Below, in pieces: positions 2,529 through 7,879 of a stretch of 64,000 nucleotides of DNA. Position 1 is the stretch's first letter. Each line of letters starts with the position of its first letter. The translations under genes and the position numbers were made by a program. A model generated the notes under the pieces. It ran no database searches, was not told where the DNA came from, and saw only the letters and a program-made list of their open reading frames with translations. The DNA lies in NCBI RefSeq assembly GCF_044324875.1, contig NZ_CP172185.1; one strand, written 5' to 3'. The DNA comes from Escherichia coli. GTDB taxonomy: Bacteria > Pseudomonadota > Gammaproteobacteria > Enterobacterales > Enterobacteriaceae.

Positions 2529-3188
2529 ATGGCTAACTGGTTAAATCAACTGCAATCCTTGCTTGGGCAAAGCAGTTCTTCTGCCTCCTCGTCTGCGGAT
2601 CAGGGATTGGGCAAACTTTTAGTGCCAGGCGCATTAGGCGGACTGGCTGGGCTGCTGGTCGCAAATAAATCAGCACGTAAACTTCTTACGAAATATGGCA
2701 CCAACGCGTTACTGGTTGGCGGCGGAGCGGTCGCGGGTACGGTGCTGTGGAATAAATACAAAGATAAAATTCGCGCGGCGCATCAGGACGAACCGCAGTT
2801 TGGCGCGCAAAGTACGCCGCTGGATGAGCGTACGGAACGTTTGATCCTTGCGCTGGTCTTTGCCGCTAAAAGTGATGGTCATATTGATGCCAAAGAACGT
2901 GCGGCAATCGATCAGCAATTGCGTGAAGCCGGTGTGGAAGAACAGGGGCGTGTACTCATTGAGCAGGCAATCGAACAACCGCTGGATCCACAACGCCTGG
3001 CTACCGGGATTCGCAATGAAGAAGAGGCGCTGGAAATCTATTTCCTGAGCTGCGCGGCTATTGATATTGACCATTTTATGGAACGCAGTTACCTGAATGC
3101 ACTGGGTGACGCGCTGAAAATCCCCCAGGATGTTCGTGACGGCATTGAACGCGATCTCGAACAGCAAAAACGTACTTTGGCGGAATAA
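2529..3188 (+). CDS. yebE: Inner membrane protein YebE (DUF533)
   Basis: 219 aa ORF in the expected position after yebF. Confidence 0.85.
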
Positions 3189-3351
3189 TTCCGCTCTCAG
3201 GATAGCCTGAAGTTGACTATTTCGGGCTATCCAGAACCGCACAGCCATTTGAACAGGCTGATTTTCTCTGTCTGCATAACATTCGATATCCGCGCCATTA
3301 CCTGTCATCATGTGACTGCTCCCCGCCCTGTCGGGCAAGGCTTCCCACTTC

Positions 3352-4521
3352 TTAAGCCGCAACCGTCTGTGCTACGGATTTATGCTGGCCTCCATGGGCA
3401 GAAACGACGAGTCCCGCCGCTTGTAATTCCAGTATGCCCTTGCGTTTGATGTTGAGCGCCGCGTTGATATCGCGGTCATGTTCAACTCCACACTCTGGAC
3501 ACTGCCAGATGCGCTTATGTAATGGCATCTCCGACATTTTGTGACCGCAGCAGTGGCAGGTTTTCGAACTGGCGAACCATTGATCCAGTTTCACCAGATG
3601 CACACCTTTCTCTGTTGCTTTGTATTCCAGTTTTGTGATGAATCCAGACCATCCAGCATCGCCTATCGCACGAGCCAGATGGTGATTTTTCATCATATTT
3701 GCCGTTTTCAATGTCTCGACAATTACCGCTTGGTTTTCGTCAACAATTGCGCGAGATAACTTGTGCTGGAAATCGGCACGGGCACTGGCTACCCGTTCGT
3801 GAACGGCTGCAAGTTGTATTCTGGCTTTGCGCCTGTTTGCGTTCCCTTTTTTCTTACGGGACAGTGCTTTCTGCTTCCGGCGAAGGTTGCGACTTGCATT
3901 GATTAGGTGGCGGGGACTGGCAATTTTATTGCCGTCCGATTTGATGACAAAATGCGCCAGCCCCATATCCAGCCCTGTCACATTTGATATCAGTGCAGGC
4001 TTTGCCGGCGCTTCCATCCCGTCGTCACAAAGTAACGACGCGTAGTATTTCCCGGTTGCGCTGCGGCTCAACGTGATACTTTTCAGCATTCCCGTAATTT
4101 CACGATGTAAACGCGCTTCAATCGGCAAGATTTTCGGTATTTTTATCGCACCATCAAGGACTTTTATGCCAACACAATGATAGCTCGATTGTCTGCCGTG
4201 TTTACTTTTAAAGGTAGGTTTACCTGCTTTCAGTTTCGGATTGAAAAAGTTAGAAAAAGCCACGTCGAGGTTAATTACCGCCTGCTGCAACGCAATAGAA
4301 TCATATTCTTTAAGCCATCCATACCGGCGGGATTTCTTCGCCACTGCAAGCAGTGGTTTGAGGTCTTTACGCGGGTTTAAATTTACGCGGTGCCGCTGGT
4401 AAGAATGTTTCTTGATATGCAGAGCTTTGTTGTACGCAAAACGCACTGCACCGAACTGGGCGTTGATAAATTCAGCCTGTTCTGGTGTCGGGTAGATGCG
4501 TACTTTTGTTGCTCTTAACAT
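3352..4521 (-). CDS. tnpB: TnpB (IS605 OrfB family, RuvC-like RNA-guided nuclease)
   Basis: 389 aa; N-terminus MLRATKVRIYPTPEQAEFINAQFGAVRFAYNKAL typical of OrfB; putative RuvC triad residues in GLDMGLAHF, IVETLK and HDRDINAALNI; C-terminal zinc-finger cysteines CHCCGHK...CPECG. Confidence 0.85.
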   Translation of the reverse strand: MLRATKVRIYPTPEQAEFINAQFGAVRFAYNKALHIKKHSYQRHRVNLNPRKDLKPLLAVAKKSRRYGWLKEYDSIALQQAVINLDVAFSNFFNPKLKAGKPTFKSKHGRQSSYHCVGIKVLDGAIKIPKILPIEARLHREITGMLKSITLSRSATGKYYASLLCDDGMEAPAKPALISNVTGLDMGLAHFVIKSDGNKIASPRHLINASRNLRRKQKALSRKKKGNANRRKARIQLAAVHERVASARADFQHKLSRAIVDENQAVIVETLKTANMMKNHHLARAIGDAGWSGFITKLEYKATEKGVHLVKLDQWFASSKTCHCCGHKMSEMPLHKRIWQCPECGVEHDRDINAALNIKRKGILELQAAGLVVSAHGGQHKSVAQTVAA

Positions 4522-4577
4522 AATCAGCGCTCATTGATATAATGCTTTTATTTTAACACTTTAGGTAAATATATCAA

Positions 4578-5003
4578 TTGAGTAATCATGATGATTTACT
4601 GGCGGGATTTCTCCGCAAACGACACAGTGTCAGTAAGCTGGTTGTGCACCTTATTTTTACGACAAAGTATCGACGCAAACTATTCGACAGTCAGATGATC
4701 GCTCAGTTGCGTGAGGCTTTTGGCTCCGCTGCGGCAAAGCTTGAATGCGAAATTATTGAGATGGACGGGGAGCCAGACCATGTACACCTGCTGGTTGCCT
4801 ACCCGCCAAAACTGGCGGTCAGTGTGATGGTCAATAATTTAAAATCGGTATCATCACGTTTGCTACGCCAGCAGAACGCGCATTTACGTATGCAGAGTAA
4901 AACGGGGCTTTTGTGGTCGAGATCGTACTTTGTCTGTAGCACCGGAGAGGCAACGATTGAAACGCTCAGAGCCTACGTTCAGAGTCAGTCAACACCTGAT
5001 TGA
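4578..5003 (+). CDS. tnpA: IS200/IS605-family TnpA (HUH Y1 transposase); start codon uncertain
   Basis: 141 aa; motifs HLIFTTKYRRKLF, HUH HVHLL and catalytic-Tyr region SRSYFVCSTG; no in-frame ATG near the 5' end, so the ORF track used TTG at 4578. Confidence 0.75.
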   Translation: MSNHDDLLAGFLRKRHSVSKLVVHLIFTTKYRRKLFDSQMIAQLREAFGSAAAKLECEIIEMDGEPDHVHLLVAYPPKLAVSVMVNNLKSVSSRLLRQQNAHLRMQSKTGLLWSRSYFVCSTGEATIETLRAYVQSQSTPD

Positions 5004-5132
5004 TCTTTAAAGCCCTGCGGGCTTTTCGCCTTATATCCCCGCCCGCATTGGGCGAGGGTTTACGGCGTTTTTCGCTAAGCAATGACTACCCTGTTTCGCT
5101 TGCATCTCCGGTGAGTTTTGCCACCCTTATAA

Positions 5133-7879
<2,747 letters not shown>

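What the first reader, a model, noticed from the sequence alone, without database searches (positions are those of the whole stretch)
4522..4640. IS605-like tnpA has no canonical ATG start
The HUH transposase frame has no in-frame ATG before the conserved HLIFTTKYRR block; the longest frame needs TTG at 4578. Either TnpA starts at a rare codon or the gene is N-terminally damaged. That would leave the element unable to move itself while still carrying an intact tnpB, an arrangement common for domesticated TnpB loci.
Basis: seen in the sequence. Interest (0 to 1): 0.3.

Follow-up and report, generated by a model that had tools for sequence, protein, structure and literature searches.

The report
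ISEc46 transposase gene starts at TTG
The transposase gene of this E. coli insertion sequence (ISEc46) starts at a TTG codon, but that is the normal, conserved start for its family and the protein is complete, so the finding is ordinary; this copy does, however, carry an untested change in the transposase hinge.

Summary
The tnpA frame has an in-frame TAA at 4566-4568, no ATG before HLIFTTKYRR, and TTG at 4578.

The "N-terminally damaged, immobile" reading is not supported.
- The insertion (window 3312-5074, 1763 bp, between yebE and ptrB) is ISEc46. RefSeq annotates the same TTG-initiated 141-aa TnpA.
- Pfam and NCBIfam profiles and crystallised TnpAs (IS608, ISDra2) align from residues 13-17, so nothing is missing.
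- In 60 distinct related loci from many gammaproteobacteria, the homologous codon is GTG (42), TTG (11) or ATG (7).
- That codon sits in a conserved context. The 6 nt before it form the -35 box of the divergent tnpB promoter, an SD-like motif usually lies 7-11 nt upstream, and a stop lies a median of 7 codons upstream.
- TTG-starting ISEc46 copies sit at four E. coli sites, each abutting 5'-TTAG. Two of them split genes.

Non-ATG initiation therefore looks like a family trait, probably keeping transposase levels low.

One unexpected point: this copy encodes G124E, at the position of IS608 hinge glycine G118. The E124 allele was seen only at yebE|ptrB, while G124 copies occupy four sites.

The parts
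3312..5074 (-). Complete ISEc46 (IS200/IS605 family, IS605-type divergent tnpA/tnpB), 1763 bp. The element's top strand (the tnpB sense strand) is the window's minus strand.
   Evidence: Alignment with the K-12 yebE-ptrB empty site places the insertion exactly between 3311 and 5075, with no target duplication. PGAP names it ISEc46.
3321..3340 (-). Right-end (RE) subterminal hairpin, CCTTGCCC-GACA-GGGCGGGG on the top strand, 9 nt from the RE tip at 3312.
   Evidence: DNA fold. It has the same CCYTYGCCC...GGGCGGGG motif as the LE hairpin on the same strand. All other copies compared have G at 3337, which gives a perfect C-G pair.
3352..4521 (-). tnpB, 389 aa, ATG start. RNA-guided endonuclease, full length.
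   Evidence: Pfam HTH_OrfB_IS605, OrfB_IS605 and Cas12f1-like_TNB; NCBIfam guided_TnpB positions 2-389 of 389. Residues 4-380 align to ISDra2 TnpB 6-389, E = 9e-74. The GLDMG, IVETL and HDRD motifs match the RuvC motifs of the best-aligned chain.
4515..4543 (+). Promoter-like site for tnpA: TTAACA, 17 nt spacer, TATAAT, with TG at 4535-4536 (extended -10). Its -35 box overlaps the tnpB start codon.
   Evidence: Consensus scan, 11 of 12 matches. A -10-like hexamer (at least 5/6) is present in 51 of 58 family sequences, and at -40/-41 from the start in 44 of them.
4550..4577 (-). Promoter-like site for tnpB: TTGATA (4577-4572), 16 nt spacer, TAAAAT (4555-4550), preceded by TG. Its -35 box is the 6 nt directly before the tnpA start codon.
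   Evidence: Consensus scan, 10 of 12 matches. The hexamer before the start codon, read on the other strand, matches TTGACA at 4/6 or better in 52 of 58 family sequences. Codon -1 is CAA in 46 and AAA in 11, never CAG or AAG.
4563..4566 (+). Weak Shine-Dalgarno-like AGGT, 11 nt before the TTG. Most other ISEc46 copies have G at 4567, giving AGGTGA.
   Evidence: Sequence. SD-like motifs of at least 4 nt occur in 36 of 58 family sequences; in 31 of these the spacing is 7-11 nt (16 nt in the other 5). The 4567 A/G polymorphism is.
4566..4568 (+). In-frame TAA that closes the tnpA frame upstream of the start.
4578..4580 (+). TTG start codon of tnpA.
   Evidence: Same start in the PGAP annotation, WP_000064873.1. 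The homologous codon is GTG in 42, TTG in 11 and ATG in 7 of 60 distinct loci.
4578..5003 (+). tnpA, 141 aa Y1 HUH transposase. HUH = H68/H70 (4779-4787), catalytic Tyr133 (4974-4976), Gln137.
   Evidence: Pfam Y1_Tnp 1-121 of 121 at aa 17-137, 133.5 bits. NCBIfam transpos_IS200, 141.8 bits against a cutoff of 55. Alignment to IS608, ISDra2 and Sulfolobus TnpA structures. Invariant columns.
4564..4600 (+). Possible RNA hairpin in the tnpA leader and first codons that would bury the SD and the UUG.
   Evidence: RNA fold -17.6 kcal/mol, z = -2.25. Kept in the closest relatives L004 (one compensatory change) and L020, but not in Photorhabdus or the GTG clade. Weak evidence.
4947..4949 (+). Codon 124 GAG (Glu) where the family has Gly (GGG in other ISEc46 copies). 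It aligns with IS608 TnpA hinge glycine G118.
   Evidence: The AF2 model puts residues 121-126 in the loop between strand 113-120 and the Tyr-bearing helix 127-136. IS608 G117A/G118A data are in PMC3597680.
5009..5029 (+). Terminator-like hairpin (AAAGCCC-TGC-GGGCTTTT) just after the tnpA stop codon.
   Evidence: Sequence and fold (second stem). The simple terminator scan did not flag it.
5037..5058 (-). Left-end (LE) subterminal hairpin, CCCTCGCCC-AATGC-GGGCGGGG on the top strand, 16 nt from the LE tip at 5074.
   Evidence: DNA fold -19.4 kcal/mol, z = -3.48 for the 71-nt LE.
5075..5078 (-). Target tetranucleotide 5'-TTAG (CTAA on the window's + strand) abutting the LE. Present in the empty site and not duplicated.
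   Evidence: The same CTAA flanks the LE at all four E. coli insertion sites, while the other flank differs.

Best explanation
TTG at 4578 is the authentic start codon of a complete, 141-residue Y1 (HUH) transposase of the named insertion sequence ISEc46.

Shown here:
- The reading frame is closed four codons upstream.
- The protein covers the whole family profile.
- Relatives start at the same position with GTG, TTG or ATG.
- The codon lies in a conserved, tightly packed divergent control region. The 6 nt before it are the -35 box of the tnpB promoter on the other strand, an SD-like motif usually lies 7-11 nt upstream, and a -10 box lies about 40 nt upstream.

Inferred:
- tnpA is transcribed from the TTAACA-17-TGnTATAAT promoter.
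- It is translated inefficiently from UUG with a weak, distant SD, and perhaps a leader hairpin.
- This keeps TnpA scarce, as is usual for transposases.
- TnpA then moves the element by single-strand 'peel and paste', using the LE and RE hairpins and inserting 3' of TTAG.
- TnpB and its guide RNA favour retention.
For: - PGAP annotates exactly this TTG-started 141-aa CDS as 'IS200/IS605-like element ISEc46 family transposase' (the same in all rows).
- Pfam Y1_Tnp matches positions 1-121 of 121 at residues 17-137. NCBIfam transpos_IS200 matches from profile position 3 at residue 13.
- Residue 15 aligns to residue 10 of IS608 TnpA, 7 of the Sulfolobus TnpA and 14 of ISDra2 TnpA.
- The AF2 model puts strand beta-1 at residues 21-29, so a start at GTG 4644 would cut it.
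- In 60 distinct loci the start-position codon is GTG 42, TTG 11, ATG 7. Val at +2 uses GTG 18 and GTA 18. Codon -1 is CAA or AAA without synonymous variants. The in-frame stop lies a median of 7 codons upstream.
- Residues 8-22 are nearly invariant, with synonymous codon changes such as Arg CGC/CGT/AGA.
- Promoter-like elements are positionally conserved.
- Mobility: four insertion sites, all abutting TTAG and all with TTG. rhmR/yfaX and ybhM are split into two pseudogene halves. One genome has two copies. There are 483-495 places in 447-448 genomes, up to 5 per genome.
- Idiomarina loihiensis carries at least 4 copies of a GTG-starting relative.
Against: - There is no direct evidence of translation initiation (no proteomics or ribosome profiling) and no transposition assay for ISEc46 or any close relative.
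- My tally kept only loci with a start-type codon followed by Ser or Gly. Four alignable loci (L053, L057, L063, L064) have diverged N-termini, and two (L010, L058) have a stop soon after the start.
- Loci are phylogenetically related, so the counts are not independent events.
- Promoters and the SD are consensus matches only, and I ran no shuffled control for their family-wide conservation.
- The low-expression rationale is inference by analogy with IS200 (PMC4513863).
Confidence: 0.9

Rival explanations
1. The N-terminus is fine, but this particular copy is transposition-impaired by G124E. This is a derived Gly-to-Glu change in the flexible hinge that lets the Tyr-bearing helix swing during strand transfer. 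The yebE|ptrB copy would then be a 'frozen' element that still has an intact tnpB.
For: - E124 aligns with IS608 G118 and lies in the loop 121-126 before helix 127-136.
- The IS608 G117A/G118A double mutant lowers transposition from 3.55e-5 to 6.6e-7 and gives no detectable strand transfer (PMC3597680).
- The family has GG in 102 of 111 sequences and GE in 5.
- For the exact E124 protein, 75 contigs were read. All 10 contexts shown, plus 58 similar ones, are yebE|ptrB.
- For the exact G124 protein, 27 contigs were read, covering three sites and one genome with two copies. A fourth site (ybhM) in strain GF43 is G124, while that strain's yebE copy is E124.
- In one search, 0 of 41 sampled records of the E-type haplotype have two places, against 5 of 17 for the other haplotypes.
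- 362 records have the E-allele 61-mer as their best match, and 87 differ at one base.
Against: - Only one of the two glycines is changed. Archaeal TnpAs with solved structures have Asn at this position.
- The new sites may stem from as few as three transposition events, so 0 versus 3 events is weak.
- E124 may simply have arisen in place in a successful lineage.
- 7 of the 75 E124 contigs were not shown.
- An E124 copy could still be moved in trans.
- No assay has been done.
Confidence: 0.35
2. One reading: tnpA is N-terminally truncated or damaged, so the element cannot move itself and tnpB is on the way to domestication.
For: - No ATG.
- The element is fixed at one chromosomal site in about 400 of 5426 complete E. 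coli genomes.
- tnpB is intact.
Against: - Profile and structure alignments show no missing N-terminal residues.
- The same TTG or GTG start is the rule in the family.
- TTG-starting copies have inserted at three further sites.
- Both ends and their hairpins are intact.
Confidence: 0.03
3. Translation starts at the internal GTG 4644 (Val23), giving a 119-aa protein that begins MHLIFTTKYRR.
For: GTG is usually a better start codon than TTG, and it directly precedes the conserved block.
Against: - It would remove residues 13-22, which match the family profiles. These are nearly invariant, with synonymous codon variation.
- It would also remove the first two residues of strand beta-1.
- No SD-like motif precedes it.
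- This codon is an ordinary Val in all relatives.
Confidence: 0.04
4. The original start was the out-of-frame ATG at 4588 or 4591, and a frameshift mutation (or programmed frameshifting) links it to the transposase frame.
For: Two ATGs lie 10-13 nt after the TTG.
Against: - That frame ends after 36 codons.
- Relatives mostly lack these ATGs (for example agtgtgcatcataaa), yet they keep the residue 2-22 frame.
- All E. coli copies compared have the same frame.
Confidence: 0.01

Closest known systems
ISEc46 (IS200/IS605 family), as named in RefSeq/PGAP annotation
   Same: The same element. The best full-length matches (H1-H30) are 99.8-99.9% identical over 2051 bp including flanks. The TTG-started 141-aa tnpA and 389-aa tnpB are identical in those copies.
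   Different: Nothing in the start codon. This copy's TnpA is the E124 variant (WP_000064873.1), whereas copies at other sites are G124 (WP_000064874.1). The ISfinder reference entry could not be consulted.
IS608 of Helicobacter pylori (TnpA structures 2A6M, 2VJV; mechanistic model of the family)
   Same: Y1 HUH transposase with the same core: HUH, Tyr on a C-terminal helix, Gln four residues later, and a GG hinge. Subterminal hairpins lie about 16-19 nt (LE) and 9-10 nt (RE) from the tips. Insertion is 3' of a tetranucleotide without duplication. The hairpin spacing in IS608 is from my own knowledge.
   Different: - Sequence similarity is remote (phmmer E = 5e-19).
- In IS608, tnpA and tnpB are co-directional; here they are divergent, as in IS605.
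- The target is TTAG here rather than TTAC.
- Here the start codon is non-ATG, and in this copy the second hinge Gly is Glu.
IS200 of Salmonella/E. coli (translational repression of tnpA)
   Same: Same family. Transposase output is limited at translation initiation. In IS200 this is done by a leader stem-loop that hides the SD, the antisense RNA art200 and Hfq (PMC4513863). Here it would be a weak start codon, a weak and distant SD, and possibly a leader hairpin.
   Different: - IS200 has no tnpB.
- The mechanism here (TTG or GTG start) is inferred, not measured.
- No Rfam family matched the region.
- The hairpin is not conserved beyond the closest relatives.
ISDra2 of Deinococcus radiodurans (TnpA 2XM3; TnpB 8EXA/8H1J)
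   Same: The TnpB here aligns end to end with ISDra2 TnpB (E = 9e-74). TnpA aligns at residues 15-138 against 14-137. It is an autonomous tnpA + tnpB element.
   Different: Different target or TAM (TTGAT in ISDra2, from my own knowledge; TTAG here) and a different host range.

Membership tests
IS200/IS605 family insertion sequence (IS605 group) | Encodes a Y1 HUH transposase (Y1_Tnp domain) | tested here: met
   Pfam PF01797, 133.5 bits (cutoff 23), full profile. NCBIfam NF033573 equivalog, 141.8 bits (cutoff 55).
IS200/IS605 family insertion sequence (IS605 group) | Catalytic residues: HUH histidines, the nucleophilic Tyr on the C-terminal helix, and Gln four residues after it | tested here: met
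   H68, H70 and Y133 are invariant and Q137 nearly invariant in 30 sequences. They align to IS608 H64, H66, Y127 and Q131.
IS200/IS605 family insertion sequence (IS605 group) | No terminal inverted repeats and no target-site duplication | tested here: met
   Comparison of the K-12 empty site with the filled site shows a clean 1763-bp insertion with no duplicated bases. The ends GTGACTGC... and ...GTTTTTCG are not inverted repeats.
IS200/IS605 family insertion sequence (IS605 group) | Similar subterminal hairpins at both ends on the same strand | tested here: met
   LE hairpin CCCTCGCCC-AATGC-GGGCGGGG and RE hairpin CCTTGCCC-GACA-GGGCGGGG, both on the window's minus strand. The fold z-score is strong for the LE (-3.48) and weak for the RE (-1.18).
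IS200/IS605 family insertion sequence (IS605 group) | Insertion next to a fixed short target sequence at the left end | tested here: met
   5'-TTAG abuts the LE at 4 of 4 independent E. coli sites.
IS200/IS605 family insertion sequence (IS605 group) | Accessory tnpB encoding an RNA-guided RuvC nuclease | tested here: met
   NCBIfam guided_TnpB, 339.7 bits (cutoff 100), full length. The stricter NF038281 model scores 380 against a cutoff of 425. End-to-end alignment to ISDra2 TnpB. The guide RNA was not modelled, and there was no Rfam hit.
IS200/IS605 family insertion sequence (IS605 group) | Demonstrated TnpA-dependent excision and integration | not testable with these tools
   There is only indirect evidence: several insertion sites and multi-copy genomes.
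ISEc46 (specific IS name) | Near-identity to the ISfinder reference entry | not testable with these tools
   ISfinder is not available here. The name rests on PGAP's product label for the identical protein.
Domesticated or immobilised TnpB locus (TldR-like or tnpA-less) | Loss or inactivation of tnpA and/or of the transposon ends | tested here: not met
   tnpA has a full-length open frame with its catalytic residues, and both ends are intact. The effect of the G124E hinge change is unknown.
Domesticated or immobilised TnpB locus (TldR-like or tnpA-less) | TnpB nuclease motifs lost or the protein truncated | tested here: not met
   Full-length TnpB with GLDMG, IVETL and HDRD motifs aligned to the RuvC motifs of the best-aligned solved nuclease, a close relative of ISDra2 TnpB.

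The most novel reading that the evidence does not exclude
The copy of ISEc46 resident between yebE and ptrB, whose E124 allele is the best match in 362 E. coli records (about 7% of complete genomes), is a hinge mutant (G124E, equivalent to IS608 G118). It can no longer complete strand transfer, so the element is frozen in place while its TnpB and guide RNA remain intact. This would be a naturally occurring early step towards a tnpA-dead, TnpB-retained locus. Separately, the family's systematic use of GTG or TTG (53 of 60 loci), with the start codon wedged directly against the -35 box of the divergent tnpB promoter, would be a conserved built-in throttle coupling tnpA and tnpB expression.
Probability: 0.25. 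Interest if true: 0.45.

Novelty: already known. Interest (0 to 1): 0.18.

Why it matters
It matters little for the question asked. A TTG start on an IS transposase that RefSeq already annotates that way is routine, and it should not be read as gene decay.

Two by-products may be useful.
- For this clade of IS605-type elements, non-ATG starts are the norm. Pipelines that demand ATG, or that extend to the longest ORF, will mis-call TnpA; several database proteins carry spurious N-terminal extensions. Such pipelines will also mis-score elements as non-autonomous.
- The G124E hinge allele gives a concrete, cheap test of whether a very common resident E. coli IS copy is still autonomous. That bears on how tnpB-carrying elements become fixed.

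Tried and rejected
- **Rfam scan** of 3100-5300 at E <= 1 found no family, so no known leader or guide-RNA model applies.
- **Leader hairpin** that would bury the SD and the UUG. I folded 61 family leaders individually. The hairpin holds only in the closest relatives (WIN, L004, L020), so I do not rely on it.
- **The repeat finder** on the element gave only short two-copy matches that look like chance, and it missed the end hairpins. These were found by folding instead.
- **Separating E124 from G124 copies by insertion site** using BLAST summary counts. The counts (400 at-site genomes, 362 E-allele records, 87 one-mismatch records) fit any distribution, so they are not informative. I fell back on exact-protein context look-ups and one two-copy genome.
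- **Literature on ISEc46.** 23 papers mention it. By title and abstract the 20 listed are resistome or mobilome surveys or unrelated papers, and none looked like a functional study. None was opened.
- **Frameshift from the ATGs at 4588/4591** was rejected.
- **Start at GTG 4644** was rejected.

Full report
**1. Observation.**

The window region is E. coli chromosome in the order yebG, yebF, yebE, then an insertion, then ptrB and exoX. In the transposase frame the nearest upstream in-frame stop is TAA at 4566-4568. It is followed by ATA TAT CAA and then TTG at 4578.

There is no in-frame ATG before HLIFTTKYRR. The only other in-frame start-type codon is GTG 4644 (Val23). The ATG ATG at 4588-4593 is out of frame and opens only 36 codons.

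**2. What the locus is.**

Alignment with the K-12 yebE-ptrB spacer shows a clean 1763-bp insertion at window 3312-5074, with no target duplication. RefSeq/PGAP annotates the identical DNA in other strains as follows:
- an 'RNA-guided endonuclease InsQ/TnpB family protein', 389 aa, at window 4521..3352 on the minus strand;
- 'tnpA: IS200/IS605-like element ISEc46 family transposase', at window 4578..5003, 141 aa, accession WP_000064873.1.

That annotation uses the very same TTG start.

TnpB is full length and aligns end to end with ISDra2 TnpB. Its RuvC-type motifs match those of the best-aligned solved nuclease, a close relative of ISDra2 TnpB.

On the element's top strand (the window's minus strand), both ends carry similar subterminal hairpins:
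- LE: CCCTCGCCC-AATGC-GGGCGGGG, 16 nt from the tip;
- RE: CCTTGCCC-GACA-GGGCGGGG, 9 nt from the tip.

The LE abuts 5'-TTAG, which is already present in the empty site.

**3. Is the N-terminus complete?**

Pfam Y1_Tnp matches profile positions 1-121 of 121 at residues 17-137. NCBIfam transpos_IS200 matches from profile position 3 at residue 13.

Against solved structures, residue 15 aligns with residue 10 of IS608 TnpA, residue 7 of the Sulfolobus tokodaii TnpA and residue 14 of ISDra2 TnpA. The TTG-initiated protein thus has 14 residues ahead of the aligned core, against 6-13 in those crystallised proteins.

An AlphaFold model (mean pLDDT 75.8) gives the following:
- a low-confidence tail at residues 1-17;
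- strand beta-1 at 21-29;
- the loop 121-126;
- the Tyr-bearing helix at 127-136.

Starting at GTG 4644 would cut beta-1 and remove residues 13-22. These residues are nearly invariant in the family. They are encoded with synonymous variation, for example Arg13 as CGC, CGT or AGA. They are therefore coding.

H68, H70 and Y133 are invariant and Q137 is nearly invariant.

**4. Comparative test of the start codon.**

A protein search found over a thousand homologues. Most of the top 120 are 141-142 aa long and cover the query fully. Several gene calls that had been extended upstream show L or V, and one F, where the others have M.

I fetched 80 loci from one-genome-per-species contigs and read the DNA. 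Among 60 distinct sequences with an alignable N-terminus:
- The codon homologous to TTG 4578 is GTG in 42, TTG in 11 and ATG in 7.
- TTG occurs in the close Enterobacterales relatives (Photorhabdus, Serratia, Proteus, Pluralibacter, Xenorhabdus).
- GTG occurs in Idiomarina, Vibrio, Shewanella, Endozoicomonas, Aeromonas and many others.
- No synonymous non-start codon for Leu or Val is ever seen at this position. Two codons downstream, Val uses GTG 18 times and GTA 18 times.
- The in-frame stop lies a median of 7 codons upstream.
- Codon -1 is CAA (46) or AAA (11), never CAG or AAG. The constraint there is on DNA, not on protein.

Caveats:
- The tally kept only loci with a start-type codon followed by Ser or Gly.
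- Four further alignable loci (L053, L057, L063, L064) have diverged N-termini.
- Two loci (L010, L058) have a stop shortly after the start and look like pseudogenes.
- The loci are related, so these are not independent events.

'Functional' remains inferred.

**5. How it probably works.**

The 56-bp spacer between the tnpB ATG (4521, minus strand) and the tnpA TTG holds two interleaved promoter-like sites:
- Plus strand: TTAACA (4515-4520, overlapping the tnpB start codon), 17 nt, TGATATAAT (extended -10, 4535-4543).
- Minus strand: TTGATA (4577-4572, the six bases directly before the tnpA start codon), 16 nt, TGTTAAAAT (-10 hexamer at 4555-4550).

An alignment of the family anchored on the start codon shows the same layout. 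Among 58 sequences:
- the pre-start hexamer, read on the other strand, matches TTGACA at 4/6 or better in 52;
- a minus-strand -10-like hexamer matches at 4/6 or better in 56;
- a plus-strand -10-like hexamer matches at 5/6 or better in 51, lying at -40/-41 in 44 of them;
- an SD-like motif of at least 4 nt is present in 36, spaced 7-11 nt from the start in 31 of them (16 nt in the other 5).

These are consensus matches, and I ran no shuffled control for the family numbers.

In the window the SD is only AGGT, 11 nt upstream. Most other ISEc46 copies have G at 4567, giving AGGTGA.

The leader can fold into a hairpin (4564-4600) that buries the SD and the UUG (z = -2.25). This hairpin is kept only in the closest relatives, so I give it little weight.

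My reading is that initiation at UUG or GUG with a weak, distant SD keeps TnpA scarce. IS200 is the experimental precedent for limiting transposition at translation initiation (PMC4513863). That step is inference.

**6. Is the element immobile?**

ISEc46 sits at yebE|ptrB in 400 of 5426 complete E. coli genomes. The tnpA 5' region and a 61-nt tnpA segment are found in 447-448 genomes, at 483-495 places, up to 5 per genome.

I found copies 99.1-99.3% identical to the window's (13-15 differences in 1763 bp) at three other sites:
- inside the IclR-type regulator gene next to yfaU and yfaY, which is split into two pseudogene halves;
- between the sucrose-utilisation genes and a truncated integrase next to tRNA-Arg and yfdC;
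- inside ybhM, also split.

All have TTG at the start, and all have CTAA (TTAG on the top strand) next to the LE, while the other flank differs. One genome has copies at two sites, and so does strain GF43.

The element type has therefore moved repeatedly with this start codon. The 'domesticated TnpB' reading fails its defining tests: tnpA and both ends are present, and the TnpB nuclease motifs are kept.

**7. An unexpected point.**

The window's TnpA differs from the copies at the other sites by one residue. It has Glu124 (GAG, 4947-4949) instead of Gly.

- The family has Gly-Gly here in 102 of 111 sequences.
- In the alignment to IS608 TnpA, G123 and E124 correspond to G117 and G118.
- The model places them in the loop before the Tyr helix.
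- For IS608, the G117A/G118A double mutant reduced transposition from 3.55e-5 to 6.6e-7 and gave no detectable strand transfer. This was interpreted as loss of hinge flexibility (PMC3597680).

Distribution of the two alleles:
- For the exact E124 protein, all 10 contexts shown and 58 similar ones, out of 75 contigs read, are yebE|ptrB.
- For the exact G124 protein, 27 contigs cover yebE|ptrB plus two other sites. The ybhM copy is also G124.
- In sampled rows, no record of the E-type haplotype has two places (0 of 41), against 5 of 17 for the others.

This fits an E124 copy that no longer moves, but it is far from proof:
- only one glycine is changed;
- archaeal TnpAs have Asn at this position;
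- the new sites could reflect as few as three events;
- E124 may simply be a variant that arose in place and spread clonally.

I give this 0.35.

**8. Comparison, novelty and score.**

This is a named IS with its TTG start already in RefSeq, a member of IS200/IS605 by every feature I could test. The finding is therefore 'already known' and ordinary, with interest 0.18.

Two things are modestly new. First, non-ATG starts are the rule (53 of 60) in this clade, and the start codon is locked against the -35 box of the divergent tnpB promoter. Second, there is the G124E hinge allele of the resident copy. Both are cheap to test (see next steps).

Noticed in passing
window 4947-4949 (nt 4948 A): The TnpA of this copy has Glu124 where the family has Gly. 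The position equals IS608 hinge glycine G118. The E124 allele was seen only at yebE|ptrB, whereas G124 copies occupy four sites.
   Followed up: partly
window 4515-4577: Two interleaved divergent promoter-like sites. Each promoter's -35 box touches or overlaps the other gene's start codon, and the predicted transcript starts are only about 7 bp apart. RNA polymerase could probably not occupy both at once. The layout is conserved across the family.
   Followed up: partly
window 4567: A/G polymorphism among ISEc46 copies. G gives AGGTGA, a 6-nt SD match. The window's A gives AGGTAA (4 nt) but makes a perfect A-U pair in the possible leader hairpin. 8 of 10 E124 copies compared have A (L089 and L105 have G), and all G124 copies have G.
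   Followed up: no
window 3337: The window copy alone, among 21 copies compared (20 plus L106), has A here. On the top strand this is T instead of C, turning a C-G pair of the RE hairpin into a T-G wobble.
   Followed up: no
window 5009-5029: A GC-rich hairpin followed by TTTT lies right after the tnpA stop codon, inside the left end. It looks like a tnpA terminator, but the simple terminator scan did not list it.
   Followed up: no
L090, L093, L102 (yebE|ptrB copies in other strains): tnpB was not called, and the element sequence is out of register (indels) in these strains, while tnpA is intact.
   Followed up: no
L003 (Collinsella sp. MAG contig, 1960 bp) and L008 (Paceibacterota MAG contig, 3353 bp): Short MAG contigs assigned to an actinobacterium and to a CPR bacterium carry TnpA 99% and 91% identical to ISEc46. 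These are probably mis-binned enterobacterial DNA rather than real host range.
   Followed up: no
E. coli plasmids H60-H65: Plasmid-borne relatives at about 78-81% DNA identity match mostly the tnpB part. Only one (H60) has an annotated tnpA next to it. These look like tnpB-only relatives of ISEc46 on plasmids.
   Followed up: no
window 4322-4341 and 4597-4616: A 20-nt direct repeat, 90% identical (TACCGGCGGGATTTCTTCGC / TACTGGCGGGATTTCTCCGC). One copy is inside tnpB (antisense) and the other is in tnpA codons 7-13. It may be chance.
   Followed up: no
L021, L022, L023, L037 (Idiomarina loihiensis SN11): At least four near-identical copies of a GTG-starting relative lie at different chromosomal positions in one genome. 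This is a good candidate for an actively transposing member of the clade.
   Followed up: no
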